From Bilabrum cf. latius (lineage: Eukaryota): a stretch of DNA of 64,000 nucleotides. Each line of letters opens with the position of its first letter. The stretch's first letter is position 1. The DNA lies in assembly GCA_965178125.1 (NCBI GenBank), contig OZ237746.1, forward strand, positions 310,001 to 374,000. Direction: 5' to 3'. Under the pieces are notes generated by a model. It saw only the letters and a program-made list of their open reading frames with translations. It was not told where the DNA came from and searched no databases. The position numbers and the translations under genes were made by a program. Positions 6,878-62,529 of the stretch are shown here, in pieces.

Positions 6878-6885
6878 TTATATAT

Positions 6886-27390: not shown

Positions 27391-30300
27391 TCACCCGAAC
27401 ATAGCAAATTCCACACCAATGGTAATTTCGTCAGTAGTTGAGTTCCCCGATCCGTACAACCCGATGATATGCTTGATGAGTGCGGCATCCATCACCGGAT
27501 CAGGTGCCGATGGGCTTCCCAGCACCTTCAGCATGTCGGGCAAGACACCGGTCTGCGCCATTGCTCTTTGCACGGGCTCTGGCCCCAGCAGGATGTGCTT
27601 CAGTGTCCCAGCAGCGATCATTTTCACGTGATCGCTTCTTGTGCGCATCAAGCGAGCAAGGGGCGGAATGGCAGCGGCAGCCGCTACCTGACACACATCA
27701 TGGGCCCCGCGAGTGATGTCGTACAGAGCGCAAAGCGCTTGCTCCAGCTTGAACGTATCAGGAGAGCCCAGGTGGGGCATGAGTTGTTTGACTGTGCGCG
27801 CCCTGACAACGGACATCTTGCACGTCAGGCTGCCTGCAGCCAGGTTCCGAATGGTTGCGATGGCGCCCATGTCCCTGCCTTCATCTGGTACGCCGAGACA
27901 CTGCACGATCGCAGGGAGTACGCCAGAACGAGCGATTTCCTCTTTGACGCTGTTGTCGCCGTGCTGCGTCGCGTTCATCAAGATGAAAATGTGGTTGCGG
28001 AGCGCACTCGTCCCCTAGGCCCTGAGCTGATCGACGACGACTGGAAGCACGCCTGCTGCCATGATGGCACGGAAGCACCGAATACCGCCTGCCGACAAAT
28101 TGGACATCGCCTTGAACGCATTAACATACGCTGCTGGCTGCACCGTCGGCTTGCTCATGCGTTCCAGAAGCATTGGAAGGGCACCGGCCTCCACGATGGC
28201 CATCTTGAGCTGGTTGCCCTCCGGGCCCGGCAGCATGTGGCCAGCCACATTCATCAGGGCACTGGCAGCGTACTCCGCAGTGCGGCCATGCTTCGAAGGC
28301 AGCAGCGATGCCAGGCCGGGAATCGCACCAGAGCGCATCACCGCCAGCTTGCTCTCTAGAGACGCATGCGCTATGTTGGCGATGGCCCAAGCAGCCGGCT
28401 CTGCCTGCTCGATCTCTTCGTGGCACACCATGCGGGTCAGCTCGGGGACGGCACCGGACTCGATGACTGCATGCGTCAGGGGAATGCTCCCAAGGCAGCC
28501 GTCTGCCAACACGCGAGCGGCGTTCATGGCAGCATGGCCGTGGTTGGACTTGAGCAGCCTCACAATGCAAGGCAGCAGGCCCCCTTTCATGATGATCGGT
28601 TGGTGTTCCCTGGAATTCACCAGCATGTGGTGCAGGGTGCTCGCAGCTTCGAATGCCTCCGATTCGCTGGGCGAGTCCAGCAGCGTGATGATGCCGGGCA
28701 GCGCCCCGCAATCCAGGGCTGGTCCAACCCTGTTCGGCTTGTTTGCGGACAGCGCCTGGATGGCAATGAGGGCGTTCTCCGATACAGCCGTGTTGCACGG
28801 GGTCAGCAGTTTGACCAGCGCCGGCAGTGCGCCTGCATCCACGACAGCCTGCCGGTGCGCTGCACTGTCTGGCTTGACACACAAGTTCCTGATAGCCCCA
28901 CAGGCTCTCTGTTGCATCATTGGTTCAGTGGAACTCAGTAGTTTGATCAGCTCTGGTACTGCGCCAGTCTCCACCACGGAATCACGCATTCGTGTGCTTG
29001 CTGCTGTGTACAGCAGCAGAATGAACAGCGCCATCTGCTGCACGGCCTTCGAGTCCTCATCGGTGGCGGGTGCCCTCACTACCGCGAGAAGAGCAGGAGC
29101 GGTGGTTCCCTTGGCAAGCACTCCCAAGAGGTGCGCTGAGGGGCTCTTCCTGATTGTGTCCAGCACCCGCACTCCGTGCCTGCCTTCCTCTTGCACTGCC
29201 TCACCCGGCATTCCAGCGAGGGCAGGGAGAACGTCAGAGTCGTTGATTGCTCGCTTCGCTTCATCAGGCCCGGCAGGGACGCAAGACAGGCAGGACAGAC
29301 CTGAGCAGCGAAGCTCGACGCTCTTAGAGCGCAGCATGGCCATGAGCGCCGGCATACCCCCCGCCTCGAGCGTTGGCATCACTGCTTCCTCATGCTCAAG
29401 CAGCCCACGCAGCGCAGTTCCAGCACTCGCGGCGCGTGACTCGTGCTTGGACTGGATCTGGTGGACCAGAGTTGGGATGGCACCTGCGTCGATCAGCTGC
29501 AGTGCGAATGCTTGAGATCGAATGGAAATTGATGAGCAGGCGTTGAATGCAGCACTGGCCAGGCTCTCGTCCTTGGATCCAAGCGTCCGTGCCATCCATG
29601 GGGCCAGGTCGCCTGCCTCGATGGGTGGCATTGCGTGCTCGCTCTCAACCTCTGCGATGAGTGCCAGTGACTCCATGGCCCAGGCAGCAAGAGCCGCGCT
29701 CTCAGAGAGAAGGACAGCTGTGAGCTCTTTCACGGTTCCAGGGAGAACCGCAGGAATGTCAGACTCCGTTGCTGGTTCAGTTGGTGTCCGAATTACGGGC
29801 CGCAGCAGCGCGCAAGCACGACGGACACTTATGGGAGGGTCTGGGCCTTCAGCCAGTAGTGCCGCAACGAGAGCGCGGTACCGAATCAGGTTGCCAGTTG
29901 TCTCATCTGAATCCAGTGCGATGGCTTTGCCAAGTGACTGGGCTTGCCCGTTGAGAGGATCGTCAGACCCAGCCGCACCCTGCACGCTGCTTGCCCTAGT
30001 TGAAGCACGATGCGCTGAGCTGGCGGGCTGCACTGCCATTTGCTCATCTCCATAAGCGCGGCATGAATCTGCAGCTTGGTCCGCGACATCCCCCGCGCCG
30101 CTGCTCTCGTGGGCCCCCAGGAGCTGACCGAGCACTCTGGCGAGAGCGAGCCGAGCAGCAGCTTCAAGCGAGAGCTTTGCAGGACCCGTTCTGGGCGGTA
30201 CAAGCTTTGGATGGGTTGTCGTTTGAAGAAGGGTGGTACTGCACTTAGGCGTTAACAGTACAGCCCTCCCGGCTCCGCCCTCGCCACTGCCTTCGTTCTC

Positions 30301-30948
30301 CTCCGTCTTCCACATGACGTGGTCCAGGCTCAGCCCGCTGAGATCCACCCCGTGCTGCATCAGGTGGTGCGCGCCCTCCGCGATGTCGCTGGCGATCTGC
30401 ACCAATTGGATGGTCGGAACGCGGTCAAGAGCTTGCTTGATGTTCTCCAGATGCTGCCTCAGGGTGCACTCGATCCGCTCGGTCACGACCACCCTGGCCC
30501 TCGCAGGGATCGAGGCCTCGTCCTGTGCTGCACCGGATGCGGCTCCCTTGGAGCTAGTGGACAAATTGAGGTACTTGATCATTGCCACTGGCAGGTAAGA
30601 CTGCGCCCACTCAGGGATTCCTGTCACCTGGTCGAACAGAACGCCGGCCACGTTTGGGTGCTCGGGAACTTGCCTTGAATCACCGCTAGACTCGGCTACT
30701 GCTTTGGCCTCCGCTGCGTCAGATTTCTCTCGATTGATTGTATAAATTCCAATCATGACTGGCCGAATGATCGTCTTTGGTGGTCCAGTCGAGCTGCTCG
30801 CTGGACTGTCGATGCCCACATTGCAATTCAGCAGCACAGCTCCATCGGCTGTGGATAGCACTGTGCACAACGGGTGCGCCCGCTCTGGCTTCTGCAATGA
30901 TGTAGTGCGGTCCATAAATACCTAAAATTCAGCTCTGGATTGCACCAT
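27391..30948 (-). CDS. Pseudokinase-Armadillo repeat protein, paralog 1 (~1185 aa)
   Basis: ORFs 28015-30915 and 27391-27981 joined by TAG; degenerate kinase subdomains (HPNV, VVTERIECTL, QIASDIAEGAHHL) then many ARM repeats (GALPALVKLL...A..AI.NL). Confidence 0.82.
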
Positions 30949-31510: not shown

Positions 31511-34500
31511 TTACTGCTGCAAACCGCGCATTGGATTCACCGCGTCCAGCTCTCCCGTCTTGACCGGCTGCCCCGTCCTGCAGTCCGTCGGCGCCTCTGA
31601 TTGTGCCACGCGCATATCCCTCGCTTGCCGTGGGCACATCTCCACCAGGCTGAACTGCACGGCCAGGAAAGTGACGACCGCGAAGAGAGCGAAGCACCCC
31701 ACAACCACACCTACTACTGCACCTGCGCCTAGGCCCCCGCTGCCCGCCGAGTCGCCATCATCCCCACCACCTGCAGGGTTCTCTGCCCCAGGTGCCCGCC
31801 CCTCTAGATCCGGAGTCATCGTCTCCTCGCGCAGCACCTCGGATGCCATGCCCATCTCCGACGCGTCCACGGAAACCCTCCCAGCGATCGAGGGAACAGC
31901 CGCACCGAGGTCAGCCGCGAGGCCACTGTCCCCGTTCGCCCCTCCCTCGATGTAGGATGCCGCCGCGGCCGTTGCATCGAACACGCGAGTGCTTGCTTCG
32001 TACTGCATGTCAACGTCGACGACTACTCCGGTTTCGCTATTCGACTGCATCGAACGCCATCTGTCACCGCCGAGTACTCCAGCCGAGTTCAGTCGTCTGG
32101 TAGTCTCATCGTCCTCATCGTCCTCCGCCTCATTCGTTCCCTGCACTCTCGCCACGACCACCGACACCGCACCAGATGCGTCCCGCAGCAGCTCTTCCAG
32201 CGCGGATGCGACACCTCGGACGAACTGCGTCTTGCTGACGCTCTGCAGCCTCAACCCAGTCAGCTCAACGTAGGTTCCTGCCGGCCGGGCGGCGGGGGCG
32301 CAAACACCCGCAGCCGAGCACACGAGGCTATCCTCGCAGTCGCCTGTGGACCTACACCTCATGCCCGATCCGCAGAGATCGCACCCCCCTGCAGCATCCA
32401 GGCCGCAGTCCGTGTCTGACTCCTCCCCGTTCATGATACCATCCGAGCACGATGGTGCGGCCCCTGGATCAGCTTGCTCGCATGTACCCTGTGCACCGGG
32501 ACTGTACCCAGGGTCGCACACACACGTGAATGCCCGAGTCGTCGCTCCGCTCGCACCCGATGGAGCGTCCAGGCAAACACCAGACCCGCACTGCACCCTG
32601 TCGCACGCGCTGGCCCGTGACTCCTGCCCGCAGGTTGGACCAAAGAATCTCCGGATGCAAGAGCAGGTGAAGTCGCGACTGCGGCTCAAAGACGGCCGGC
32701 AGGTGCCACCGTTCTGGCAGGGGTTAACCCTGCATGGGTCCGGCGGCGGAACTGCGCTTGTAGATGCCTGTGCCGCTGGTGTTGAGCTCGCTGCTGCGGC
32801 AGTTGTTGTGTCTGGGCTTGCGGTGTTGCTGGCTTCCGGAGATACTTCGGCGTTTCGCGAAGGTTGCACAGTCGCTGAGGCCGGTGTCGAAGAGGGCCTG
32901 GCTGAAGTCGACGATGGCGTTGCTTCAGCGGGTGAAGAAGCTCCTGCTGAAACAGCAGCAGAGGCGGTTGGCTGGCTGACGGTTGTGGACGTCTGCGGGC
33001 TGGTGGTCGGGGTCGGGGCTGGGCTTGACGTTGCGGTCCCAGACGGCGACGGCGAAGTGCTCGGGCTGGGTGTCGGGGAAGGCGAGCTGGAAGGAGCCGG
33101 GCGATCAAGATTCAGGCCAAGGAGGTATACACCGCCCCATCGTTGTGTGGAGCTGGAACCGACTCTGTCCATGCCCACGGCCATGGTCAGGTTGCTGCCG
33201 TCCATCTCACCGTAGCCCATCATTGCGAGAGAGGTGCCGGTGAATCCTGCGCGGATATTCGGTGCAGTCGTGGTGAAGCCCTCTTCCCCCTCTCGGATCA
33301 CTCTCTCCGCCAGCACCGTGCCATTGGCGCGCAGGTGCAGAATGTGCACGGCAGAGCTGGCACCCACTGCAATGCTGGTGACGGAACCAGGGTAGACGTA
33401 CCCCAGGGATGCCACTGACTGCCCGAAATCGGCGCCGTTTTCAAGAGTGGTGTTTAGTCCGCCAAATGAGTTGGAGATGCGCTGCTGTCCCATCACAGTT
33501 CCATTCGCGCGGAGATGCACGATCCACACAGCACCGTGCCCATACCCACCTCCAGCGCTGCTGTCGACGACCTGATCCGCCCCGACGGCGAGCGACACTG
33601 CGCTCCCGGGCATGATCTGCCCGAGGGACGCAATTGATGACCCAAACCGGCCTTGAAACTGCATGGCGTCGGTAAAGCCGCCCATGTTCTCGCTGATGCG
33701 CTGGTACCAGCTGACGGTGCAGTTGTCGTGAAGATGCAGCAGGTACACGGACCCTTTGCCCCTAAACGAGCTCCTCTCGGCTGAGCCCACCGCAAGCGTC
33801 ACTGCAGAGGCGGGGTCCATCTAACCAAGCGAGGCCACGGCGCTCCCGAACATAGCATCTTTCATCAGATTGACGGACAGGTTGCCGCTCGCGCTGGATA
33901 TCTTGACGTGCCTAGCCACGGTCCCGTTGGAATGCAGGTCCAGGATCCACACAGCTCCATACTCGCTGGAGGACGATGAACTTTCGCCGTAGATGTTGTC
34001 CCTGTCCCTCTCTGCGCCAACGGCAACAGTCACAGCAGTGTCTTCATGCATTTGACCGAGGGACGCCACCGAGCACCCGAACAAGGACGAGGTCGCAAGC
34101 TCGCCCTCCATACCCCCAGCCGCATTGGAAATCAGCTGGTGCCCCGAAACGGTGCCATTGTGCTGCAAGAACAGGATCCACAGAGCCTCTACGGCACCAA
34201 CAGCCATGGCTGCGTGATGGCCACTACCCAGCGGGCCGAGGCTAGCCACAGCTCGCCCAAAGTCGCCCCGCAAACTGAGCGTGCCTTCAAATCCTCCCAG
34301 ATCGTTAGTGATCAGCATCTTCTGCCCCACCAGTTCCGCGGGGGAGACCTGCGGTTCGATGGTGACCTGCCAGAAGGCGCCCATGTTCAGGATGGCCCTG
34401 CCGATCGAGTCGCCTGGGGTGCCCACCATGAAGGTTACGTTGGCAGGGGAAGTTGATCGGCCGTGAGTACTGTGCGAGAACCGCAGGGCGAGCGCGCCTC

Positions 34501-35869
34501 CGAACAGAAAAGGGGTGCCTGCAGTGCCCGTGGTGCTGCTCAGCGGCGGGCCCATCTTGGTGCTCGACTGGACGGTCCAGTCGTGCCTCAGGTTGATGAC
34601 CCACACCACGCCCTCAACGGTCGAGGACCTGTCCTAGGGGTACGCCCCTACCGCGATGGTTGTCATTGAGTGCGGGTCCACGTGCCCCAGGTCTAGCACG
34701 GACCTTCCGAAGCCGTCGTCTGTCTCGAGCATGCCGTCGAAATTGCCTTCCTGGCGGTTGATCTGGCTGTACTTGATGACCGTATTGTCGCTCCGCAGGT
34801 GCAGTATCCAGATGCCGCCGGCACCGTAGCGATTGGCTGGAGCTCCCACGACAAGCGAGGCGACCGCATTGTTGTCTGGTTCCTTCCCAAGCACGTTATC
34901 GGCAGGCGAAGCGATGCCGATGGGAGACAGGGAGGAACCGAAGAACTGGCTGTGACTTATCCCGATGTCTATCCCACCCTCCCGCGCCCCGATCTTCTGC
35001 GAACGGATCACAGTGCCGCTGGATCGCAGATCAAGCACCCAGATGGCCCCGGCCTCGCCCCTGGAGAACCGGTCAGCATGGGTCCCTGGAGCCCCCACCA
35101 CGATGGTCACCGGGGCGTCTGGCTTGATCCGGCCCAGCGATGCCACGGAGGAGCCGAATAGGTCCCCTACAGCGACCGTCCCCTCAAAGTCCCCGTCCCA
35201 GTCGGAGATGACCTGGTACCATCGGATGTCCCCGTTCGGTGCCAGGCTGATGACGGTCACGGAGCCGGTCGGCAGGTGATTCGAGTTGATTGAGCGCCGG
35301 TCACCGGGCGCTCCCACGGCCATGGTTGCCGCTCCTTCGGGATCTAGCTGTCCAAGGGACGCCACTGCCATACCGAAGTGCATATCTTCATACATCAGTC
35401 CGACAGTCCCCTCGATCGTGTTTGTTGGGATCTTCCGATGGCCGTGCACCATGCCACTCGGGTCAACCTGAACCAGCCAGGTCGCGCCTCCACCTATTTC
35501 CTTTTCGTCATCATATGGCGCTCCGATGGCAAATGTGTCGTGTGCACCGGCGCTGAGGTTGCCCAGGAGAGCGATCGAGGTTCCGAAGCCGTCCTCGGCG
35601 TCCAGGTCGCCGTTGAAGCCCGCGTCGGTACCTGGAGCGATCTTAGTGGCAGAAAGCAGCTGCATTGGGGATTCATCGTGCCATTCAGACTGAGTGAGCC
35701 GGCGCGAACGAGGCTTGGTGGAAGTGGCGGCGCGCACCGACGCCTGATCGTTGAAGTGATGGCCCCTTGCGATCGAGTCGGTGGCCAAAACGGAAGCTGA
35801 ACCGGCCAACAGCTGGCTAGCCACAAGCTGGACCGCGACCAAAAAGAAAAATGTTGGCTTGAGTACCAT
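31511..35869 (-). CDS. Integrin-alpha-like FG-GAP repeat membrane protein with S/T/P stalk, EGF-like domains and C-terminal TM (~1452 aa)
   Basis: Three ORFs in one frame joined by TAGs at 34634 and 33821; signal-peptide-like start; many FG.S.ASLG...AVGAP repeats; CRVNPCQNGGTC...CSC...FFGPTC; hydrophobic AVVGVVVGCFALFAVVTFLAV; TAA stop. Confidence 0.85.
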
Positions 35870-37083: not shown

Positions 37084-39957
37084 TCAGTTCGGAAGCCCCT
37101 CCGTGTTCCCCAAGGTCCCATGCCTAGGCCCAGCGTCGCTCACGTCTAGCTAGGCTACTCCCAGCCGCAGGGCCAGCGACCCCGGCAGCAGCGTGAAGTT
37201 GCGAGCCCTCCAGTCGGCCATGCCGGGGTCACCCTCCACGGACCCTCGCTCGTGTCCCTGCTCCTGCCAGGACCGCAGCGAGCCGGAATTCGGGAACGTG
37301 GCGCTGAGCCGCCCCGAGGTGGCATTAAAGTACACGTTACTCCCCGAAATCACGTCCCGGAAGTTGTCCGCGTAGTTCATGGTGCAGTTGGGCCCCGCCA
37401 CCTTTGGGTCTTCCTCCCTGGCGCAGGGAAAGCTGTCGAAGACCATGCCGTTGGCTTGTGGCTGGTCGGCTGTATCTGCCAGGATGATGTTGCGGGAGAA
37501 GGTCGCGCTCGTGTAGGCGTACCAGTGGAGAGCTGGTTCGGACCTGGTCTCGCCATAGGCGTTTGGTGCGCCAGCGATGAAGAAGTTGTCCGTGATGGTG
37601 GTCCTCGGTGAGGCCCTGTCCATGGGCACGCCCGGGTTAACGTGCCACTTGAAGGGCGAGTCTGCCACGCCGTAAATCAAGTTGCCGGTCACGTTGTATC
37701 CCGTGGTTGACGTGTCCAGGTAGATGCCCGAGCCCCCGTTCTGGTATGCCGTGATGTTGGCCAGCACGTTGCTCGCGATGCTCATGGTCCTGTTGGCCCC
37801 CGTGGTTGACGTGTCCAGGTAGATGCCCGAGCCCCCGTTCTGGTATGCTGTGATGTTGGCCAGCACGTTGCTCGCGATGCTCATGGTCCTGTTGGCCCCC
37901 GTGGTTGACGTGTCCAGGTAGATGCCCGAGCCCCCGTTCTGGTATGCCGTGATGTTGGCCAGCACGTTGCTCGCGATGCTCATGGTCCTGTTGGCCCCCG
38001 TGGTTGACGTGTCCAGGTAGATGCCCGAGCCCCCGTTCTGGTATGCCGTGATGTTGGCCAGCACGTTGCTCGCGATGCTCATGGTCCTGTTGGCCCCCGT
38101 GCCCCCGATGTGCAAGGCCCCAAAGTCACAGATGCCCGAACTGTCCTCCTTCCCATTGCCGGCCACGACGTTCTTCCTGAAAACAGACCCCGAGGACGCG
38201 CCTCCCTCCATGGAGCTCTGGTACCCGTTAAAGTACCCGTCACGCATGGAGCAGTGCTGCACCAGCATTCCGTGCCCGATGGTAAAGATCCCCGGGGCGG
38301 AAGGCATCACCTGGCCAAACCCGTGCACCGACACGTCTTGCACGATGGACCCGCCCCGATCCTGCTCATCATGCGAGTCAATCGAGACGCCGCCTCCCCC
38401 CAGCTGCTCGAGGGAGCAGTTGGACACGCGCACATCCTGCGCATCCGACAGCTGGACTCCCCATCCTCCCAGGTTCCTGAACGTGCAGCCTTCGATGGTC
38501 CATCCACGCACCCCGGTTGCACGGACAGCAGCCCCGCGAACGCTCGTGCCGGCGTCTCCGTCGCAGGCTGTCCCAGGGGTGCATCGGAAGGCAGTGCCCT
38601 CAAATACCAGGTCCTTCGGGTGCAGCTCGCCGTGAGTTTGGTCCCTTAAAGCGCTGGGAGGGGCCGATCTTCCACTTACCCCGGTGCCGCTGGCCTCCTC
38701 ACGGCGGACCCCTCCGGCAGGCGGCTCTGATGATGACACAAGCAAGGAAGGGGCCACTGCCACCGAGAACTAGCCGTTCGGCGCCGTGGCCAGCTCCTTC
38801 CTCACAAACAGCACGCAACCTCCATGGCTCGGGTCATCGCACGCCGCATCCCCTGGTGCCCCCTCTTTAGCCGGCACGATCAGGAAGTCTCCCTCTGCTG
38901 GGCCGAGGGAGGAGCCCGCGCCCTAGGGCTCATGACCCGGGTCATGAACACCCTGTGCATCTAGCACTCTTCTATCCTGCCCCACACTACGACGCCCCGC
39001 TGCATTCCCCTTGCCCCCAGCAGCAGCAGCAGCTGCCAGTGGGAGGGACAGCAGTTCACGGGCCCCCTCTAAGTACCACCTGCGCTTGGAGCAGTACTCG
39101 TAGCTGCCCAAGGGGAACTTGGTGCGCTCTAGGAACGAGACCATGTCACCCTTGCTTTCTCCTAGGAGGCCCGTGCTGTTGCGATACGCTCCCGTTCCAA
39201 GCAGCGCCGTGGACGCACCTCGGCGGCGGGGACTCGGAGTCGGAGTCACGCTGGCGATCGAGTGCCTCGATTTGGTCCACGAGTGGAACACCCACGCGCG
39301 CCACCCGGCGAGGGCGGCTTCCGAGGCGTCCAGCCCAGCCAAGTCTCCGGGGGCTGCAATGAGGCCCTCGGTGTTGAGGGGGCTGCTTCTGTTGGCTGGA
39401 TCGGGAGGAGCAGCCCAGTACAGCATCCGGGACCGCAGCCGCACCAGCCTTTTGCTCCCCTCCGCGCTAGTTTGATCGGTGAAGTAGACGTCCTAATGAG
39501 TCGCATTGATCGGGAGTGAGGCTAGAGGAGCACTGCACCATGTACTATGTGAGCTACAGTTCCAACTAGGTGCCCCATTTCTCAAAAACGGGGACGAAAT
39601 AGAACCTGACACGATCGCTCGGCGATCTCTGGGAGCCAGCCCCGGCCAAGTCGTCAGTGTGATATTCAGCCAGCTCTTCGCCAAATTTACCGACGGGACT
39701 GCTATAGAATCATTGCTTCTGTGAACGGTCGGAGCCAGAAATACCGAATAGTATGTGCTCTGGCTATTTGATACCAATGCCATCGCAGCATGGACCGTGG
39801 CAAGAGGCCGCTCCGCGGTACCCGGACCCGCGTCACTACCAGTCCTAGGATCAACATAAATGAGAGATTGAGCCCATGTAGCACACGACGAAGTGGCTGC
39901 AACAAGTAGGAGCATCCTCAAAGTCCCTAGATGGCGTGGTGGTTTCAAGCCAATCAT
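37084..39957 (-). CDS. Secreted right-handed parallel beta-helix protein (pectin-lyase-like fold, ~957 aa)
   Basis: Signal-like N-terminus, IYVDPRTGSDAGPGTAERPLAT, GSGIYLD and VEGDPGMAD...NFTLLPGSLAL motifs; frame open except for TAGs; TGA stop. Confidence 0.75.
37700..38101. repeat. 99-bp near-perfect coding tandem repeat, 4 copies
   Basis: GANRTMSIASNVLANITAYQNGGSGIYLDTSTT four times. Confidence 0.95.
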
Positions 39958-52383: not shown

Positions 52384-52413
52384 GCCCATAAACACTGGTC
52401 AATAACCAAAGTT

Positions 52414-55400
52414 TCATCCCTGCATCACAGTACGAATGAGGCTGGCATCAAACCCGGGATTGGGTGCCCTTGGACCGCTCAGCACCTGCAGCATCATGGG
52501 GAGCGCGCCCGAAGCTGCAATCACCTTCTGCAATGGCTCTGGCCCGATCATGATATGTTTTAGCGTCACTGCGGCGATCATCCTGCCGTGATCCGTCCTC
52601 GCGTTCATCATGCGGATCAGAGCGGGAATCGCCCCCGCACCTACCAAGGGAGTGCACACCTCCTGGTCTTGGGACAGGTCGTACAGGGCACTGCCAGCCA
52701 GGTCTGCAAGTGACGGGTCTTCATCGGGCCCCAGCATGCGGATGAGCTGCGGCAGTGCAGCAGCAGCAACCACCGCTCTCTTCTAGCGCCGCTGCCCCCG
52801 GCAGAGCAGCCTGACAGCAGTGACCGCAAACCTTGACCTGTGCTCCGCGTGCACCTCGAGCTGGGCCACTATAGCAGGGAGCAGCCCCGCCCGAAGCACC
52901 TATTCTCGCGCAGGTGCTCCTCCGTGCATCAGTATGCCCATCACAATGATAAGATGATTCCGGGGGGCACGTGGCCCAAAAGCCTTGAGCTGCTGTGCAA
53001 TGACAGGCAGCACACCCGCCGACATAATTGCTCCAACACAGCGCTCATCACCGGATGAAATGTTTGATACTGCTTTGCACGCATTGATATACGCTGCTGG
53101 CTATTCTGCTGGCTTGCTCATGCGTTCCAGAAGCATCGGAAGGGCACCAGCCTCCACGATGGCCATCTTGAGCTGGTTGCCCTCCGGGCCCGGCAGCATG
53201 TGGCCAGCCAAGTTCATCAGGGCACTGCCAGCGTACTCTGCCGTGCGGCCATGCTTCGAGGAAATCAATTTCACGATTGGATCAATGGCGCCAGCCTCCG
53301 CGACCGCCTGCTTACCCTTAAGCGTTTGGTGGCCAAAGTTAGCGATGGCCCACGCCGCAGCCTCGACCTGATCCAAGTCCTCGCACTGAATCATGCGGAT
53401 GAGCTCTGGAAGCGCGCCTGCCTTCAAGATGGCCGGTACAAGGCTGTCATGACCCAGGCTCCCGTCCGCAAGGACGCGTGCAGCTGCAATCGCTGATTTG
53501 TTGTGGTCGGATTTGAGCAGCCTGACGACGCCAGGCAGCACGCCCCCGTGGATGATGGCTATGCTTAGCTCTACAGAGCGATTCATCATCTCTTGCAGCA
53601 TGGTTGCAGCGAGCTCCGACTCATCGCAATTGGGAGAACCCAGCATGTTGCATAGATAAGGCAGAGCACCTGCATCAAGAATCTCCTTGCGCCGATCCAT
53701 CATCTACCGTGCGATGCCTCGGAGTGCGAACACCGCCTGCAGTGCCACTTCGTTGCCGCAGGGAGAGAGCCTCTCCACGAGGACCTGGATTGCGCCCGCA
53801 TCCACGACTGTTTGCCTCGACTTTGACTCGGCATTTCCTCCGGAAATGAGATTTCGAATCGCGGTGCACGCCATCTCAGCGATGGTGTCGGTCTTGTGCG
53901 ACTCAAGCAGCCGCACCAGGATAGGAATGATGCCAGCTTCCACAAACGCATTCCGAATTCGGGTACTCGCCGCAGCCAAGATGTACAACAGCTCTAGGGC
54001 GATGCCACAAGCCTTCACGCTCTCTGTATCGCCCTCTTCCAGCGCTAGCACAATCTCCATGAGGCCATCCAGCGCGCCGTGCTCGGCTATCGCGCGACGC
54101 AGTCCGTCGGATCCACGCCTTGACGTGCCCAGAAACGTCGTGGCACACATGCCCTCGTACTCCACAGGGCCACCGCTCATTCGAACCAACCGAGCCAGGA
54201 TATTGGAGTCCATGATTGCCTGCTCCGTTTCACCGGTACCTACAGCGAAGGCTGACAAGCTCTCAATCGCGCGCTTACGCAGCTCGACGGCTTTGGCTGA
54301 GCTTACCAGGTCCACTAGCACGGGGATGGCGCCAGCCTGCATCGCTGGCATCAACGCTGTTTCATCCGGATCGTCCGAAATGCCTGTCATAAGATGGGCT
54401 GCTGCGATGGCGAGCTTTTTGTGGGGGGACTGCAGCAGCCGGACCAGGGCAGGCAGACCGTCTGCATCGATCAGCTGCTGTATGGAAGGCTGCACGGAGG
54501 GTCTAGACATGAGCACCAGGCTTAGCATGGCCGAGCACGCCATACCTGCACTCATGGTGTCGCTCGAACCCAGCATGCGGGCCAGCAGTGCAGCAATGCC
54601 GGCACACTGGACAGCCTTGATCGCGTCTTTAAAGTCAGAAGTTACGATCAGTTTGACCGCCCTCGCTGCATGAAAAGCAAGGGCGGGTCTATCTGACTGG
54701 AGAGCGAGTCCGATGGCATCGAACAGACCAAACCGGGCCAGTGATTCTGCTGCTTCTGGGGATAACGTCACTATGCTTGCAGCCGTGCTAAGCCAGTACT
54801 AGGGCGGCACAGCGGATTCGGAGGCTGAGGAAGATGGCGAGGACGAGGACTCTCGAACGGACTCGACCATGCTTCGGAGCTCGTCCTCGTCCTTGGCGAT
54901 CCGGATGATCTCATCGTTGATCGCCAATTCGAGCGCCGACATAGCTCTGGTGGGGCCTGAAGCACAGACTGCCTATTTTGTCTCGCCCGTGCCACCCCCA
55001 CCCGCAGAAATTTTGTCCGCTAAGTAGTCCATTTCGACATGAATGCAGTGCAGGATGAAGTACCTGCAGGCCACCATGCCACGTGCACGGGCCAGCCGCA
55101 GTGCATCCTGCAAATGTCGCAACGATTCAAGGTGAATCTCATCCGAAGCTGCAGAGTGTGCGCGTCTTACTACTTCTCTGAGGCAGCAGTTGATGCTAGT
55201 CTCTACCAGTGGTGGCACAGCGCTTGGCCCTGGCTAGCATAGCCTCGCACGAGCGTCCTCCACCTCGAACAGCTCCCCACCCGCCGCATCGTCACCCGTG
55301 AGCTTCCTCGCGATCTCTAGCAGGTCGCGTTGAGATGGCGCAATGCAATGGTCTGACTCGGGTTCGGGTGAGCACGCTGCTGGTGCCTCTTCCCCTAACT

Positions 55401-56406
55401 CTTCCCCAGTGCCATCGCTTGCGGCTGAAGGCCCGGGCGCTCTATCCTCAGCCTCTTCCCCAGTGCCATCGCTTGCGGCTGAAGACCCGGGTGCTCTATC
55501 TTCACTCGCTGCCTCCGATGATGAAGAGCCCTTCAATGCACCTTCCGATCGATCCCCCGCGAGTTTCTTAACGAGATTTACCAATGCCTCCAGCGTCCCA
55601 CCGAGGGCCTACGCAGAGGCGGCCTGCAGGTCATGCAGCTCCTCTGGCTCTACCGCAGCACATGCTACTCCTGGGGCTGGGGCATCGCCAGTGGCCGCAG
55701 CTGCGGCCCTCGGCATAGATATTTGGGTACATGGCATATGCTGCATTGGCAGCAGCACCGCTCTCCCGGCATAGCCTTCACTCTCCCCCGTCGTTGTCCA
55801 CATGACGTGGTCCAGGCTCAGCCCGCTGAGATCCACCCCGTGCTGCAGCAGGTGGTGCGCGCCCTCCGCGACGTCACTGGCCAGTAGCAGAAGCTGCAAG
55901 TCGCTCATTGTTCTCTTGCTGGCGCTGCATCCATGGATGTGCTGCCTCAGGGTGCACTACGCCGGTTCTAGCAGCATGATGCGTGCCGTTGTTGGAGCTT
56001 GCATTCCACCGGGGGATACGCCTGTCGACGACCCAATCAAACCAGCAAAGTGCATTGCATCCTCAATCTTTTTCGGAATCTCAGTCGTAGCATCAAAGAG
56101 TATTCGCGCAATGTTCGGATGCTTCGGTACCGTCTCGATCTCCGAAGTCAGCCTTACGTGTCCTTCACGACCTTGATCGCTATCAATTGGGCTCACAACC
56201 ACAACAAATGATTCCATGCAAATCAAGGAATCTTCGCCGGATAAAGCCGTGCCTTCCTCGTCATAAATCTTGGCGACCATAATTCCATAGCTTCCGTTAG
56301 CAGCCAGTGATACGTCACTTGCATCATCCCGCTTCACTATGCTTGCACGAGTCAGCAGACTATTATAGTATGAATTGCGATCCGTGCCACCACTGATTTC
56401 ATCCAT
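52414..56406 (-). CDS. Pseudokinase-Armadillo repeat protein, paralog 4 (~1330 aa)
   Basis: Seven track ORFs in one frame separated only by TAG; HPNIARILFD, LASDVAEGAHHLLQHGVDLSGLSLDHVMW; ARM repeats; TGA stop. Confidence 0.82.
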
Positions 56407-57000: not shown

Positions 57001-60000
57001 TCATGGGCCTGGGGAACGAGAGCCTGGCTCTGCAGCAGGCACACTAGACTGCTACGCATCGTTTGCCTGCTCTGCAGCAACTCCCCCAGACGGCTAGATC
57101 TGCGCGCCGCTGGCCTCCCCTGAGGCATCTCCTCCAAGGCCACACGACGAAGCTGCAGTAGCGTGCCCTGCATTGCCCGCATCTGGTGCAGCAGCGCCGG
57201 TCTTTTCACCGGCACTTGCACCTGCGTCTTCTTCTTCTTCAGATCTTACGCCTCCACCACCCCGATGCCTCTTCAGGGCGCTCTCTAGAGACCCGCTCAG
57301 GTCATCTGGCAGGTCCACCAGACCGCCGCCGAGCAGCCCGTCGATGGCATGGTAGAGGGTGTCAAGTTGGTCGACTTGCAGCATGCCCTGTAGCAAGCCA
57401 GGGATAGACAGTAGGTCATTGATGACCCATGCGGCCGGCTCGGTGGTCTCGTCAGCATCAGCCAGCATCTGAATCAGATGTGTGACCGTGCCAGCCTCCG
57501 CTACCTGCTAGGCGTGCGATCCGCCGCCCTTGCTCGACATCGACAGCAGCAGGTGCAGCGTAGTGGTCGCTGAGGTCTCCGTGCAGCGACAGCTAGCATC
57601 ACGGCATCTTGCAGCTTCTCCAGATGCAACCGATTGCAGAGTGCGGCACAGAGCAGCGATCCCACCGGACTGGATGATCTCATGCTGCAGAGCGGCAGAA
57701 CCCCTCGACAAGCCACGCAGAATGGCACAGCCGCAGCTTACTTTGTCGGTGCCGAGCATGCCGACTAGATTGGTGATGCCAATCGCCTTGGCAAGAGCAG
57801 GCGCATTGGATGGCACGCCTCCGATGACGTTCTAGATCATGAGAGAAACTACTTGCAGTGCATCTCCTTCCGAGGACGACAAGAGAAACGCCAAGACGCC
57901 GTTCAGACCCGCATCTTTGACGGCCTTTAAGCGCATCGACTGGTCAGCCTCACATCTGTCCTCACCACCGCACATCAAGCTTCGGATGCACTGAAGCAGT
58001 GCGGATAGCATGGTCATGCCAGGCACCTCTCCTTCTGGTACATCGACACCCTCAGCAGCTCGGCTGCACGCCATCGGGATCCAGCGGGTGATGTGAGTTA
58101 GTACGCCGATTCCCATCACGGCGCTTCTGACTTTCGAAGAACCGCACAAGAGAACTGATACGATATCCAGCGCCCCGACAGCTCTGCTAGGGTGACTCGA
58201 CTGCAGTATTTGCGAGAGAGACCGCAACAAGCCACTTTCCAGCAGATCACGCTGCTTTCCTGCCCTCCCTACCATCGTGTGGACGGCACCCAACGCAGCC
58301 AATGCAATGGGTTCTCTGTCAGCCGTCATACTATCCACGAGACAAGGCAGTGCGCGTGCCTCCAGCATCGCAGCTTTGACAGATTCACGCGCATTGCCCG
58401 ACAGGGCAGCCAGCGCTAGCGTGATCGGCCCCGCGGAATCTGTCGTGGCAAATCCAAGCCCACGAACCAATGACTTGACTGCGTCGGGCTCTGCCTCAAG
58501 GGCCTTTCCTGCCACAGCTTCATCGCTACGCAGCACGGCAGCGAGGCAAGAAAGAGCGGCATCTGCCGCCTCGGCATTCGCGGACTGCGTGATCCGGACA
58601 AGATGGGGTAGCGAGCCGCACCGTACCACGCGTTCGGCCAACGCACTGCAGCAGTTAGCGATGTTTGTCAGGGCAGAGCAAGCGGAATACAGGTGCTGGC
58701 CTCTGTGCGACGAAGATCTCTGTGCTTGCGCACTCGCAGAATCCCTGAGGATCTGCACGAGGGGTGGCAGCAGGCCGGCCTCAACAAGTACATGCTCCAT
58801 TTTCTTTGCAGAAAGCCAATCAACCAGCTCCACAGCTTTGCGGGTGCTGCTCTAGTTCTCCAACTGTAGCCAGTCCTACAAGATCGCTGGCAGGCCCTCT
58901 TCGCATAGATCTTGTGCTATCTCTTCGTGGCACCAGGCCAGATTCGAAACGATCCCGTAGGCTTCTGAGATCGCCTGAGGAGAATACAAGCTGTCTTGAT
59001 CCTCCTCGTCTGGATTGCACACTTGATGCAGTATGCGAAGGAGCACCGGGACAACTCCAGCCTCAAGCACTGCACGGTGGATTTGTAGACCTTGCACCTC
59101 GTCACTTCCAGTCACGTTGCATAGGCACTGCAGAGCATCCTCCACTGCGTCATCTTCTGGGTGCTTCAGTATGTCTGCTAGCGACTCGAACCCACCTGAT
59201 TCAGCGATGATTTGGGCTGTATCGTCGCGGCACAGGGTGATCGCTGCCAGAAGCTGACAAGCAGCAACGTAGTTGTTGTACAAGTCTGGATTAGGAGCTA
59301 TTGCAGCGACAGCTGCAAGGACTGCTCCAGCTCTGACGATGCATTCAACCACATCAGGGTCTTCACCAGAGACCATATCTACAAGACACGTCAGCGCTGC
59401 CTCTTGCTCATCGTGATTGCCCTCATGCACCATGTGAACCAGGCGGCCTACGACGCGATCCGTCGCTACCGCCTATTGGATAGCGATAGATCCATCGCAG
59501 AGGGCGGCCAGGGCATGTGTTGCCCTATACGAACCGGTAGTACCAGGCTGGACCGCGCTTGCTAGAGCAGGCAGAGCTCCAGCGGCAACAATGGCAGCCT
59601 TGGCGTCCTCATTATCAGGGCACATTTCTCCTAGGCAGGCGCATGCGTCAACAAATCCATCGTTAGCAATGCTACTAATCATACGAACAAGTGGTTTGAT
59701 CGCTCCTGCCTGTATAAGGTCTGGGATCATGTCAACGGTACCCACGGTACCCCCCACGAGCAAAAATGCCGCCCTCGTCGCTCGTGCCGCTACAGGAAGC
59801 GACTGTGAATCCAACAGGCACACAACAGCAGTGAAGAATCCTCCTTCACCCATCTGTTCATATAGGTCTGCAGAGAGATATCTAGCACAGTTTCCGAGAG
59901 CCACCAGGCAGTGAGCCAGGGCAAGCTCCAGCGTTTCACCCATGTCATGCTCCGGGCCTCCTCGTGACCAGAACAAATCGATCACCGTAGCCAGTAGACC

Positions 60001-62529
60001 TTCGCGCACAAATGTTGTTCGCGCGTTATGGCAGGTGGTCGACAAGTCGGATAGTGTGCGAGCTGCTATTTCCGTCATGTTCGTGTCGGTGGAGCGAATC
60101 AGACTGACGAGAATAGGCACAGCACCTGACTCGACGACAGCACAAGGATCACCTCCCGCAGGATTAGCAAGGTTCCTGATGGTGCACAATATGTACTCGT
60201 GCAGCGCTGAAAACGGGTACTTTTCTACACTATCGGCAGCACGACGCAGATGCGCAACCATCAAAGGCAGCACCCCGGATTCCGCCACGACCGCTTTGAC
60301 TAGGCTAGGGTCACTTGACAAGTTGCTCACGCACTCAACAGCTGCAAACATCTCGTCTTTATTACCGCATTGAATCATTTTGACGAGCCCAGGTAGTGCA
60401 CTTGCATCTACTATTGCGCTGCATGACTCATGTCCGGTCTTTGCTAGGCAAGACAGTGCGTGGACTGCTACACACTTGGAGTGGGCTACGCCAGAGCTGA
60501 TGACCTGTACGAGCGGTCCAACAGCGCACGCGTCAAGCACAGCCTACTTGACAGAAGCCCCGCCCTGCAGGATCGCACCAAGTGCCTCCAACGCGGGAGT
60601 CAAACTGTACGACGGGCCGCCCTCGATAACACTGACGAGCCCGACTACTCCACCTGCAGCAACGATGCGGCTCACACAATGCTCGCTGCCGTAGGCTAGG
60701 CTGGCAAGGAGCCGCAGAGTCGATCGTTTCAATCGACCATCGGCCGAGTACAGTAGCTTCACCAGTGGAAGAAGCGTGCCGGCATCGACAATGCAGTCCT
60801 TGATCGACTCATCGTCGATTCCAATGTCGCTGAGGGCTTGGACAACGTGGAAGACCTCATCATCATCTTCCGAGGCGAGGCGTGCAGCAAGCAACGGGAT
60901 TGCAGGTGTCTCCAATAGAGTCTTTTCGTCGAAGCCCAGATTTCCAATCGCCAGCGCAGCCGCTTTCCGTTCCGTGGCACTGTCCGATTGCAGCATGTCC
61001 ACCAAGGGTCGAAGCACGGCAGGGTTGACCAGCTGGTCGCGCACCTAGCCTTCATTGCATTGGTTGTACAGCCTGGCCATGAACGCGCCAAAGTGGCGAG
61101 CGACTCCAGGGTACTTACCATGCAGTATGGTAAGGATCGTATCGATCGGCGAGTCCTTGTCTCGCTGGTCTCGAAGGATTGCGACAGTCTAATCGGCCCA
61201 GGAGTCGAGCATCTTGCGAACACCGCTCGAATCAGCTGCGCATGTGTCCAAAATGCCGAGCCCTTGCAGGATGCACTAAAGCATGCGAGTTGTCGTTGCC
61301 AGGCTATCCTTCAGCTTCTTGAATACCTCCCGCGCTGCATCGATCGCGCTACTTTCGGGGCACGGCCCGCACAGCAGCGGCAGAACCTGATGAGCAGCCA
61401 AGTCGATCGTGGCATCGCCGCTGGACGGAAATCGCCTAGGTGCCCTATGCATGTACTCACTCATTGCTTGAAGCAGCTCGTGCCTGGAGCGAGCCGACTG
61501 TATCTGCTCTATGAACCCCGAGAGGTGACCCCCTTCCGAGCTAGCAGACTGGCTGCTCGCCATGGCAGCCGAGCCTGCTGCCAGCCTTGCGTCACCACTG
61601 CCGCTTGCTAGATTCTTGATGCTCTCGAGAACCTGCACGAGCGCTGGCACACCCATCACCGGCGTGCTTGAACGGTCCTTGGCTTGGCGCACGGACGTTG
61701 GCCCGCCCTTTTGCAGGCCATGTGAGCCCTTGCCACCAGGGGCTGCCGAGCTTGAGGCCGAGCAGGAGCAGGAGAAGGAGGAGGAGGGCGACGGCTCGGC
61801 GCTCGACTGGCTGTTCTCAGTCATGGGCACAAGTCCTACCGGTAGCAGCACCACCCTCCCCCCATCGCCCTCGTCACACCCCTCCCTGCTCCACGCCACG
61901 TTGTCCATCGTGAGGGCATCTGGGTCGATGCCGTGCTGTAGCAGGAGCTGCATGATCTCAGCGATGTCGCGGGCAATGATCATGGACTCGTACTCTGACA
62001 TCTAGGGGCCGTTCCGCTTCCTATCATCGAGGTAGTGCTGCAGCGTGCACTCGATGCCCTCGATCACCACCACCCTCGCCCTCGGCGGATTCATAGAAGA
62101 GTCCTGTGCTCCACCAGCTGCTGCCCCTTTGGAGCCCGTTGATGCCGCGCTTGATGCATTACTGTCATCACACATAGCATGTAGCCACTCTGGTACATCT
62201 GTGACCTGGTCGAACAGAACTTTGGCGGCAATCGAAGTCCTCTTGCGAAGCAGGTCGATCCTGTCGCTGCCTCCGGCGATCCCACTTGGGCTTGTGGTGC
62301 AGGGTACGTCAGACTAGTGCGTAAAGACAACCATTGCAATGGAACTGGCGGCCGGCTTGGGAATGTCTGCGGACAATCCGGTCAAGCGTTCAGCGTCGGC
62401 ATCGAGGCGCAGCAGAGTGTAGCACTCAGACACGGCTAGCACAATGTCTTGAGACGACGGCACTTCTGGAGACAATACACCAGTATCTATGATTTTGCCT
62501 ATCCTCTAACTGGACTCGCTTTGCTCCAT
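57001..62529 (-). CDS. Pseudokinase-Armadillo repeat protein, paralog 5, longest and most divergent (~1842 aa)
   Basis: Frame open from ATG 62529 to TGA 57001 except for TAGs; RVVVIEGIECTL, IARDIAEIMQLLLQHGIDPDALTMDNVAW; extended ARM array. Confidence 0.8.

What the first reader, a model, noticed from the sequence alone, without database searches (positions are those of the whole stretch)
27391..62529. Host nuclear code reassigns UAG to Gln while UAA remains a stop
Seen: internal paralogs act as controls. LRA*GT (28015) vs LKAQGT; GPQPL*RV (48484) vs GPEPVQRV; KPAE*PAAY (53101) and PNE*PAAY (41029) vs KPTVQPAAY; ASLG*MDP (33821) vs ASLGQMHE/ASLGQLDP. Reconstructed genes end in TAA (31511, 45015) or TGA, and TAA is never internal. 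Established: UAA and UAG are usually reassigned together in nuclear codes; uncoupled cases such as the fornicate Iotanema spirale are rare. Inference: a further, possibly independent, uncoupled reassignment in a GC-rich protist.
Basis: partly seen in the sequence, partly recalled or inferred. Interest (0 to 1): 0.88.

Follow-up and report, generated by a model that had tools for sequence, protein, structure and literature searches.

The report
Protist reads UAG as glutamine
A GC-rich, intron-poor eukaryote, together with the virophage and the retrotransposon inserted in its genome, reads the stop codon TAG as glutamine while keeping TAA and TGA as stops, a rare split of two codons that usually change meaning together.

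Summary
With TAG read as sense, eight minus-strand genes of 957-1,842 codons appear at 27.4-62.5 kb. They hold 59 in-frame TAG, 0 TAA and 0 TGA in 10,133 codons, and end at TGA (6) or TAA (2). Making TAA or TGA sense does not produce these genes.

The AT-rich virophage-like DNA at 1-11.5 and 20.5-27 kb gives the decisive test for TAA. It has 64 in-frame TAG and 0 TAA in 4,250 codons, although A-ending codons are preferred there (CAA 147, CAG 17). Its gene ends are 8 TAA and 4 TGA.

A Ngaro-type retrotransposon also needs TAG read through, once inside its reverse transcriptase.

TAG means glutamine. Three TAG columns of an integrase are Gln in 133/150, 129/150 and 115/147 homologues, relatives carry CAA/CAG at those places, and the host paralogues favour Gln.

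Related virophages in metagenomes use the same code.

Not obtainable: tRNA-Gln(CUA), eRF1, RNA evidence and the organism's identity. This is a new member of a known code type (Iotanema, some ciliates).

The parts
27391..30948 (-). Kinase-like + armadillo-repeat protein, paralogue 1 (1,185 codons from the first ATG; 2 in-frame TAG at 30924 and 28017; stop TGA)
   Evidence: Arm E=1.6e-55; N-terminal part resembles kinase+ARM/HEAT clusters
31511..35869 (-). Secreted/membrane FG-GAP repeat + EGF + Ser/Thr/Pro-rich stalk + transmembrane protein (1,452 codons; TAG at 34636 and 33823; stop TAA)
37084..39957 (-). Right-handed beta-helix protein with a signal-peptide-like start and four exact 33-residue repeats (957 codons; TAG at 39495, 38925, 38772, 37152; stop TGA)
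   Evidence: Beta_helix E=4e-15; 99-nt x 4.1 array at 37700-38101
40282..43911 (-). Kinase-like + armadillo-repeat paralogue 2 (1,209 codons; 7 TAG; stop TGA)
45015..48131 (-). DDE_1 (pogo-like) transposase gene (1,038 codons; 15 TAG; stop TAA); about twice the neighbouring depth in run X1
   Evidence: (DDE_1 E=3.2e-11)
48355..51717 (-). Kinase-like + armadillo-repeat paralogue 3 (1,120 codons; 6 TAG; stop TGA)
52414..56406 (-). Kinase-like + armadillo-repeat paralogue 4 (1,330 codons; 9 TAG; stop TGA)
57001..62529 (-). Long armadillo-repeat paralogue 5 (1,842 codons; 14 TAG; stop TGA)
1..11731 (.). AT-rich virophage-like element, left part; it runs off the window. Genes: start of a protein-primed PolB 3-656(-), DUF5906 primase-helicase 714-2375(-), rve+chromo integrase 2433-3488(-), Sputnik V18/19-like penton 5012-5965(-), ORFs 6302-6877(-), 6886-7986(-, P-loop motif), 8049-8864(-), 8922-9311(+), 9389-11467(+). 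Every complete gene carries 2-13 in-frame TAG and ends at TAA or TGA.
11732..20521 (-). 68% GC Ngaro/DIRS-type tyrosine-recombinase retrotransposon inserted in the viral DNA. Split direct repeats: A 11732-11818 and 12506-12592; B 11821-12505 and 19837-20521. ORF1 17829-19838 (3 TAG), RT-RNaseH ORF 13593-17729 (2 TAG), YR ORF 12592-13755 (1 TAG).
20522..27390 (.). AT-rich viral DNA, right part. Second rve+chromo integrase 20957-22114(-) with 7 TAG; GC-rich island at about 22.6-23.7 kb holding a tyrosine-recombinase fragment; two DUF285-repeat proteins 24583-25380(-) and 25470-26492(-).

Best explanation
The organism's cytoplasmic translation reads UAG as glutamine and ends proteins only at UAA and UGA. 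This is a table-15 / Iotanema-type nuclear code.

Shown here: every class of gene in the window depends on it. These classes are cell-type genes, a DNA transposon, a tyrosine-recombinase retrotransposon and an integrated virophage-like element. UAG sits at conserved Gln positions. UAA is absent from coding frames even where A-ending codons dominate.

Inferred from established knowledge of such codes (Panek et al. 2017, PMC5304391, sections read): a tRNA-Gln with anticodon CUA, one base away from tRNA-Gln(CUG), reads UAG but cannot pair with UAA. An eRF1 with a changed N-terminal domain no longer releases at UAG but still does at UAA and UGA.

The mobile elements have adapted to the host code. 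The AT-rich virophage uses TAG (64) far more than CAG (17) as its G-ending Gln codon, so it could not be expressed in a standard-code host.
For: 1. TAG is sense. Host genes hold 59 TAG, 0 TAA and 0 TGA in 10,133 codons counted from the first ATG. Eight ORFs of at least 1,012 codons appear only under TAG-sense, not under TAA-sense or TGA-sense. The same holds for the AT-rich blocks and the Ngaro element.

2. These are not pseudogenes. There are no frameshifts. dN/dS is 0.27-0.33 between environmental virophage relatives and 0.37-0.47 between Arm paralogues. A RIP-like C-to-T decay would also give TAA from the far commoner CAA, and none is seen.

3. TAG is Gln. Integrase 20957-22114 was searched with X at each TAG. 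Its TAG columns 54, 148 and 291 are Gln in 133/150, 129/150 and 115/147 homologues. The summed BLOSUM62 score is Q 14.05, E 6.62, K 4.63. Checked on DNA, the window's other integrase and locus L001 have CAA at two of those columns, and L001 has CAG or CAA opposite three TAGs of integrase 2433-3488. In the primase-helicase, TAG in TL[TAG]TL and KE[TAG]C stands opposite true Gln codons in L001-L005. In the host Arm paralogues Gln is opposite TAG in 20 of 113 aligned residues against a 3.4% background, and the BLOSUM sum is Q 13.2 against E 3.2 over 31 columns.

4. TAA is a stop. The viral genes hold 64 TAG and 0 TAA in 4,250 codons, with CAA:CAG 147:17 and AAA:AAG 313:96. About 200-550 TAA would be expected if TAA were Gln. 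The other two frames hold 171 and 262 TAA. Eight of 12 complete viral genes end at TAA. For the host genes about 28 TAA would be expected and 0 are seen.

5. The code is host-wide rather than virus-only. The retrotransposon's RT-RNaseH ORF (1,378 codons) needs two TAGs read, one of them inside the RT domain. Its YR ORF needs one and ORF1 three. The pogo-like transposase has 15.

6. These are not assembly errors. Contigs of runs from four studies carry the stretch. Run X6 covers 38072-43296, with nine TAGs, and shows 0 other letters.
Against: No tRNA gene of any kind lies in the window or in L001-L006. No eRF1 and no genome were available.

No housekeeping gene is in the window, so 'nuclear, genome-wide' rests on about 30 genes, many of them repeated or mobile.

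Some TAG columns stand opposite E or K in relatives. Examples are IE[TAG]LE opposite E in 3 of 3 relatives, PA[TAG]CTLRQH opposite E, E, K, E, and the cross-locus tally of Q 51, K 21, E 20 (which is noisy and not independent).

Proteins in the public libraries were partly predicted with TAG translated as Q; P0004 has Q where L001 has TAG. A minority of the 'Q' may therefore be circular.

That UAG never terminates a gene cannot be shown from ORFs that were defined with TAG as sense.
Confidence: 0.85

Rival explanations
1. Context-dependent (ambiguous) code. UAG is Gln inside genes but still ends some genes near the 3' end of the mRNA, as known for other codons in Condylostoma and Blastocrithidia.
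For: Nothing in the window excludes it, because gene ends were found with TAG treated as sense. Such dual-meaning codes are summarised in the Background of PMC5304391.
Against: None of the 20 complete gene models needs a TAG end. Paralogue and homologue C-termini coincide with TGA or TAA: the primase-helicase ends ...LCKIEK then TGA, as in its relatives. TAGs lie 44 and 61 codons before a stop inside conserved sequence.
Confidence: 0.07
2. Virus-driven recoding. Only mobile or viral DNA uses TAG as sense, read by a suppressor tRNA supplied by a giant virus, as in phages with code 15, while the host keeps the standard code. The 27-62 kb block would then be part of a large viral insertion.
For: The genes are intronless, all on one strand, tightly packed and partly an expanded repeat-protein family. 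The block's 53-62% GC differs from the 68% GC retrotransposon. Giant-virus genomes from metagenomes that annotate better under alternative codes have been reported (PMC13524828, passages read).
Against: No viral hallmark gene lies in 27-62 kb. The proteins there are cell-type: signal peptide, FG-GAP/EGF/transmembrane, and kinase-like+ARM with eukaryotic look-alikes only. A retrotransposon and a pogo-like transposase, which are expressed without any helper virus, also need TAG read. No tRNA gene lies in the viral DNA or in L001-L006.
Confidence: 0.05
3. UAG is sense but codes for another residue, glutamate being the runner-up (as in peritrich ciliates).
For: E is the second-best candidate in every tally. 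A few conserved columns have E opposite TAG.
Against: The three hyperconserved columns are 78-89% Gln and at most 16% Glu. The BLOSUM sums favour Q by 2- to 4-fold in viral and in host genes. Q/E exchange is common at ordinary Gln columns too: columns of the integrase's own CAA/CAG Gln are only 13% Q in the homologues.
Confidence: 0.03

Closest known systems
Iotanema spirale (Fornicata) nuclear code: UAG = Gln, UAA and UGA = stop (Panek et al. 2017, PMC5304391; abstract and sections 3, 7, 9 read)
   Same: Only UAG is reassigned, to glutamine, and UAA is kept as a terminator. The argument has the same logic: in-frame UAG at hyperconserved Gln columns (22 of 28 there; 3 of 7 integrase columns here at 78-89% Gln).
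   Different: Iotanema ends genes mostly at UAA (104 UAA to 15 UGA) and is known from a transcriptome only. Here the host genes end 6 TGA to 2 TAA at 53-62% GC, and genomic DNA with mobile elements is available. Whether the two are related is untested.
Ciliates with a UAG-only reassignment to Gln: two phyllopharyngean lineages and Protocruzia tuzeti (McGowan et al. 2024, PMC11687900; discussion passages read)
   Same: The same code variant. It shows that this variant arises repeatedly.
   Different: Nothing here looks ciliate-like. The DNA is GC-rich, has long intron-free genes, and carries integrated virophage and retrotransposon DNA. This is an impression, not a test.
UAR = Gln codes (NCBI table 6: many ciliates, hexamitin diplomonads, some ulvophytes, oxymonads, Amoeboaphelidium)
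   Same: Stop-to-Gln reassignment, presumably through tRNA-Gln with a changed anticodon and an altered eRF1.
   Different: In those codes TAA is also Gln. Here there are 0 in-frame TAA against 64 TAG in AT-rich genes, where TAA would dominate.
Endogenous viral elements of Streblomastix strix that use the host's non-standard code (Bellas et al. 2023, PMC10120064; passages read)
   Same: Integrated virophage or polinton-like DNA written in the host's variant code, taken as a sign of long association.
   Different: There the code is UAR = Gln in a metamonad. Here it is UAG only, and free-standing metagenomic relatives (L001-L006) share it.
Cafeteria burkhardae EMALEs interrupted by Ngaro retrotransposons (Hackl et al. 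2021, PMC8547959; passages read)
   Same: AT-rich virophage DNA with an rve integrase sits in a GC-rich host and is interrupted by a GC-rich Ngaro element with A1-[ORFs]-B1A2B2 split repeats.
   Different: A term search of that paper found no use of 'genetic code' or 'amber', and its one mention of premature stop codons attributes them to assembly errors. That the Cafeteria genome is about 70% GC is my recollection, not from a call. No close EMALE homologue of the primase-helicase was found.
Phage code 15 (TAG = Gln in crAss-like and Lak phages)
   Same: The same codon and the same amino acid.
   Different: In phages the recoding belongs to the virus and differs from the host's code. Here the cellular genes use it too.

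Membership tests
Nuclear code with UAG = Gln and UAA/UGA = stop (Iotanema type, NCBI table 15 pattern) | In-frame UAG inside otherwise intact, conserved coding sequences | tested here: met
   59 TAG in 8 host genes, 64 in 12 complete viral genes, 6 in 3 retrotransposon ORFs. ORF-length controls. dN/dS 0.27-0.47.
Nuclear code with UAG = Gln and UAA/UGA = stop (Iotanema type, NCBI table 15 pattern) | UAG corresponds to conserved glutamine | tested here: met
   Three hyperconserved Gln columns (133/150, 129/150, 115/147), CAA/CAG in relatives checked on DNA, and Q the best candidate in host paralogues.
Nuclear code with UAG = Gln and UAA/UGA = stop (Iotanema type, NCBI table 15 pattern) | UAA is not a sense codon and ends genes | tested here: met
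   0 in-frame TAA against 64 TAG in genes with CAA:CAG 147:17. 8 of 12 viral and 2 of 8 host genes end at TAA. TAA-sense decoding does not lengthen ORFs. This holds within this window and L001-L006 only.
Nuclear code with UAG = Gln and UAA/UGA = stop (Iotanema type, NCBI table 15 pattern) | UGA remains a stop | tested here: met
   0 in-frame TGA against 235-244 in the other frames of the host genes. 6 of 8 host and 4 of 12 viral genes end at TGA.
Nuclear code with UAG = Gln and UAA/UGA = stop (Iotanema type, NCBI table 15 pattern) | UAG is never used as a terminator | tested here: inconclusive
   No gene model needs a TAG end, but ORFs were defined with TAG as sense. Transcript 3' ends or orthologue C-termini genome-wide are needed.
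Nuclear code with UAG = Gln and UAA/UGA = stop (Iotanema type, NCBI table 15 pattern) | A tRNA-Gln with anticodon CUA | not testable with these tools
   0 tRNA genes in the window and in L001-L006. No genome is held.
Nuclear code with UAG = Gln and UAA/UGA = stop (Iotanema type, NCBI table 15 pattern) | eRF1 N-domain changed at stop-recognition motifs (GTS, NIKS, YxCxxxF) | not testable with these tools
   No eRF1 gene in the window and no genome held. The motif list is taken from PMC5304391, section 9.
Nuclear code with UAG = Gln and UAA/UGA = stop (Iotanema type, NCBI table 15 pattern) | UAG present in mature mRNA, and Gln at that place in the protein | not testable with these tools
   No run on record as RNA holds the stretch. 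All four laid runs are contigs and probably DNA.
Integrated virophage (mavirus/EMALE-like) | Morphogenesis genes: major capsid protein, penton, packaging ATPase, cysteine protease | tested here: inconclusive
   The penton is found (V18-19, E=5.3e-7). An ATPase-like ORF has a P-loop motif but no Pfam hit. No full-length capsid gene is present: only a 173-residue ORF beside 59-nt repeats at 3668-4010. The relative L001 has MCP, penton, ATPase, pPolB, primase-helicase and integrase.
Integrated virophage (mavirus/EMALE-like) | rve-type integrase and replication genes | tested here: met
   Two rve+chromo integrases and a DUF5906 primase-helicase. The start of pPolB is assigned through 62% identity to the L001 gene that carries DNA_pol_B_2.
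Integrated virophage (mavirus/EMALE-like) | Terminal inverted repeats and a target-site duplication | not testable with these tools
   The element runs off the window's left end. No terminal inverted pair was found within 1-28 kb.
Ngaro (DIRS-order) tyrosine-recombinase retrotransposon | RT, RNase H and tyrosine recombinase, with A1-[ORFs]-B1A2B2 split direct repeats | tested here: met
   YR E=8.6e-7. RT E=7e-4 and RNase H E=3e-3 are both below Pfam's cut-off. Repeats: A 87 nt x2 and B 685 nt x2, all exact.

The most novel reading that the evidence does not exclude
This is an independent origin of the UAG-only Gln code in a free-living, GC-rich, non-ciliate and non-metamonad protist. A whole parasite stack runs on that code: nuclear transposons, an integrated virophage, a lineage of recoded virophages seen in metagenomes, and by implication the still unseen giant virus that they exploit. 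The AT-rich virophages have made TAG their main G-ending Gln codon. The code would then act as a host-range lock and as a marker that ties environmental virophages, and code-15 giant-virus genomes, to this host lineage.
Probability: 0.45. Interest if true: 0.82.

Novelty: new member of a known kind. Interest (0 to 1): 0.68.

Why it matters
UAA and UAG almost always change meaning together. The papers read name Iotanema, an uncultured rhizarian, the green alga Scotinosphaera and a few ciliates as exceptions (PMC5304391, PMC11687900).

A further case with genomic DNA in hand would let the two predicted components be read directly: a CUA-anticodon tRNA-Gln, and an eRF1 that has lost UAG recognition but kept UAA. 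The 2017 paper could not do that for Iotanema, for which it had only a transcriptome.

It also matters for annotation. Under the standard code every long gene here breaks into fragments. The largest ORF is 968 codons where genes reach 1,842, and the mobile elements look like pseudogenes.

The shared code of host, retrotransposon, integrated virophage and metagenomic virophages gives a concrete way to link uncultured viruses to a host lineage. It predicts a giant virus that is compatible with UAG = Gln. [quoted passage not shown]

Tried and rejected
Tools that gave nothing:
- Whole-genome search: no genome is held for this window.
- No tRNA and no Rfam family in the window. No tRNA in L001-L006.
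- No RNA holder was listed for 27391-36000. The four runs laid are contigs, probably DNA, so nothing can be said on expression, editing or splicing.

Attempts to place the organism:
- The FG-GAP protein search returned 30 repeat proteins; the only ones named by organism are bacterial.
- The Ngaro RT-RNaseH search scored nothing.
- The protein atlas gave only broad eukaryotic kinase+ARM/HEAT clusters.
- The organism therefore remains unplaced.

Other searches:
- Three scans of viral contigs (primase-helicase alignment, penton, integrase) found no relative.
- The PDB comparison of the integrase was weak (E 0.002-0.008). It put one TAG opposite Ser, between two Gln, of the PFV integrase PQSQG motif, which is uninformative.

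Readings rejected:
- Pseudogenes or RIP-like decay: only TAG appears, never TAA or TGA; there are no frameshifts; dN/dS is below 0.5.
- Tiny in-frame introns: TAGs sit inside conserved motifs that align without gaps to paralogues and homologues.
- Sequencing error: contigs of other studies are identical.
- Halocafeteria as host: it has 47% GC and no Ngaro elements according to the preprint 10.64898/2026.07.28.741278 (passages read).

Literature: searches found no paper describing UAG = Gln in a GC-rich flagellate or in virophages. The library lacks most subscription journals, and supplements were not seen.

Full report
LAYOUT OF THE WINDOW

The window is a mosaic.
- 1-11.7 kb has 29-41% GC.
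- 11.7-20.5 kb has 66-71% GC.
- 20.5-27.4 kb is again AT-rich, with a GC-rich island.
- 27.4-64 kb has 53-62% GC.

No genome is held for the window. It contains no tRNA gene and no Rfam family.

THE OBSERVATION

Under the standard code the minus strand of 27-64 kb has ORFs of at most 968 codons. With TAG read as sense, eight ORFs of 1,012-1,852 codons appear, all on the minus strand. Making TAA alone or TGA alone sense does not do this.

Counted from the first ATG, the eight genes have 10,133 codons with 59 TAG, 0 TAA and 0 TGA. Six end at TGA and two at TAA. Counted over the full ORFs (10,256 codons, 60 TAG), the two other frames of the same DNA hold 37/47 TAA and 244/235 TGA. The eight ORFs cover 88% of 27391-62541.

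Contigs of runs from four studies carry the stretch. Run X6 spans 38072-43296, which holds nine TAGs, without a single differing letter. The TAGs are therefore not assembly errors. The best holder, X1, may be the source sample and is not independent.

WHAT THE GENES ARE

Five genes are paralogues with a kinase-like N-terminal part and many armadillo repeats.
- One gene is a secreted FG-GAP/EGF protein with a Ser/Thr/Pro-rich stalk and a membrane anchor.
- One is a beta-helix protein.
- One is a DDE_1 (pogo-like) transposase with 15 TAGs.

These are eukaryotic, cell-type genes without introns. No viral hallmark gene lies among them.

THE FLANKING DNA GIVES THE STRONGER TEST

The AT-rich DNA is virophage-like. 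It holds:
- a DUF5906 primase-helicase;
- two rve integrases with chromodomains;
- a Sputnik V18/19-like penton;
- the start of a protein-primed polymerase;
- DUF285-repeat proteins.

Its 12 complete genes and one partial gene have 4,250 codons with 64 in-frame TAG, 0 TAA and 0 TGA. The complete genes end at TAA (8) or TGA (4).

In these genes A-ending codons are strongly preferred: CAA 147 to CAG 17, AAA 313 to AAG 96, GAA 235 to GAG 73. The other two frames hold 171 and 262 TAA. If TAA were a Gln codon, roughly 200-550 would be expected in frame. None is there.

This is far better evidence for the split between UAG and UAA than the GC-rich genes alone, where about 28 TAA would be expected. 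ORFs in both AT-rich blocks lengthen only under TAG-sense.

A NUCLEAR RETROTRANSPOSON USES THE SAME CODE

Positions 11732-20521 are a Ngaro-type element. It has exact split direct repeats: A of 87 nt twice and B of 685 nt twice, in the order B-[ORFs]-A-B-A on its own strand. It has three ORFs that are whole only with TAG read through:
- ORF1: 669 codons, 3 TAG.
- RT-RNaseH: 1,378 codons, 2 TAG. One falls between the N-terminal part of the RT and the Pfam RVT_1 match; the other lies between RT and RNase H.
- Tyrosine recombinase: 387 codons, 1 TAG.

A retrotransposon and a pogo-like transposon are expressed by the cell itself. This argues that the code belongs to the host and not to a helper virus.

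WHICH AMINO ACID

I searched integrase 20957-22114, with X at its seven TAGs, against 1.84 billion representative proteins and aligned the best 150.
- Three TAG columns are hyperconserved Gln: 133/150, 129/150 and 115/147.
- The other four columns are variable.
- Summed BLOSUM62 scores are Q 14.05, E 6.62 and K 4.63.

Some library proteins were themselves predicted with TAG translated as Q (compare), so I checked DNA where I had it. At two of those columns the window's other integrase and metagenome locus L001 have CAA. L001 has CAG or CAA opposite three TAGs of integrase 2433-3488. A TAG of L001 lies opposite CAA in the window.

In the primase-helicase, TAG in the invariant stretch TL[TAG]TL and in KE[TAG]C stands opposite true Gln codons in L001-L005.

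In the host's own Arm paralogues, residues opposite TAG are Gln in 20 of 113 cases against a background of 3.4%. Gln is the best candidate: 13.2 against E 3.2 over 31 columns, and 15.9 against 8.4 over the 8 columns in conserved context.

Results pointing the other way:
- Several single columns have E or K opposite TAG.
- The crude cross-locus tally is Q 51, K 21, E 20.
- The PDB alignment was uninformative.

Such scatter is usual at Gln columns. The integrase's own CAA/CAG columns are only 13% Q in the homologues.

NOT DECAY

- There are no frameshifts.
- dN/dS is 0.27-0.33 between TAG-bearing genes of environmental relatives and 0.37-0.47 between Arm paralogues.
- C-to-T decay of repeats would make TAA from CAA at least as often as TAG from CAG, and TGA as well. 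Neither occurs in frame.

ENVIRONMENTAL RELATIVES

Six metagenome loci encode primase-helicases 54-56% identical to the window's.
- They carry 4-6 in-frame TAGs in that gene, except the short fragment L006, which has none.
- Their ORFs lengthen only under TAG-sense.
- L001 is a complete-looking virophage, with integrase, primase-helicase, pPolB, ATPase, penton and Sputnik-type capsid protein. It has 2-9 TAGs per gene and TAA or TGA ends.

So a virophage lineage outside this genome is written in the same code.

MECHANISM

Shown: the decoding pattern.

Inferred from what is established for such codes (PMC5304391, section 9):
- A tRNA-Gln with anticodon CUA pairs with UAG but not with UAA. It is one mutation away from tRNA-Gln(CUG).
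- An eRF1 is altered where it contacts the third stop base.

Neither could be looked for.

COMPARISON AND NOVELTY

UAG-only reassignment to Gln is known from Iotanema spirale, two phyllopharyngean ciliate lineages and Protocruzia tuzeti. The code type is therefore known.

The present organism has 53-62% GC and long intron-free genes, and its genes end mostly at TGA. It carries virophage DNA interrupted by a Ngaro element, an arrangement otherwise described for Cafeteria burkhardae. A term search of that paper turned up no mention of a variant code.

Endogenous viral elements that follow a host's variant code have one precedent, Streblomastix strix.

Eight literature searches found no description of this case. 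The library is incomplete and supplements were closed.

I could not place the organism, so independence from the known cases is open.

VERDICT

It is a new member of a known kind. The added value is a recoded host, transposon and virophage system with genomic DNA available.

Noticed in passing
window 1-11731 and 20522-27390: AT-rich virophage-like DNA with two different rve+chromodomain integrases (about 30% identical) and no full-length capsid gene. It looks like two elements, or a rearranged one, lying next to the 3' end of a host gene.
   Followed up: partly
window 3668-4010: Three copies of a 59-nt unit (two identical, one 95%) lie where a capsid gene would be expected. Beside them is only a 173-residue ORF (4419-4940) with no family match.
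   Followed up: no
window 15883-16803: An 18-copy, 51-nt tandem array (95% matches) inside the retrotransposon's RT-RNaseH ORF encodes a 17-residue repeat upstream of the RT domain.
   Followed up: no
window 22597-23700: A GC-rich island inside the AT-rich DNA has exact direct repeats (22597/22929 and 22753/23523) and a tyrosine-recombinase fragment (23100-23684). It is probably the remnant of a second Ngaro-type insertion.
   Followed up: no
window 24583-26492: Two paralogous DUF285-repeat proteins (25-residue repeats, SFNQPLxNWDVSNV) lie in the viral DNA. dN/dS between them is 0.30.
   Followed up: partly
window 37700-38101: Four nearly exact 99-nt repeats (99% matches) in the beta-helix gene give four identical 33-residue units, which points to a recent expansion.
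   Followed up: no
window 44669-47390: The DDE_1 transposase region has about twice the depth of its neighbours in run X1 (190-300 against about 100) and is the part most often found in the other runs. It is probably a multi-copy transposon. A 6-nt deletion at 46592 is seen in three runs.
   Followed up: no
window 63677-64000: A 75-nt tandem repeat (4.3 copies) runs to the window's end inside a low-complexity plus-strand ORF (63006-63998).
   Followed up: no
window 714-26492 (viral genes): TAG (64) is used nearly four times as often as CAG (17) for Gln in the viral genes. In the host genes TAG (59) is a quarter of CAG (231). The AT-rich elements appear to have taken TAG up as the cheaper G-ending Gln codon.
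   Followed up: partly
L001 1-12997: The metagenome contig looks like a complete virophage at 40-51% GC: integrase, primase-helicase, pPolB, ATPase, penton and Sputnik-type MCP. It has 2-9 in-frame TAGs per gene. The first three genes are in the same order as in the window.
   Followed up: partly
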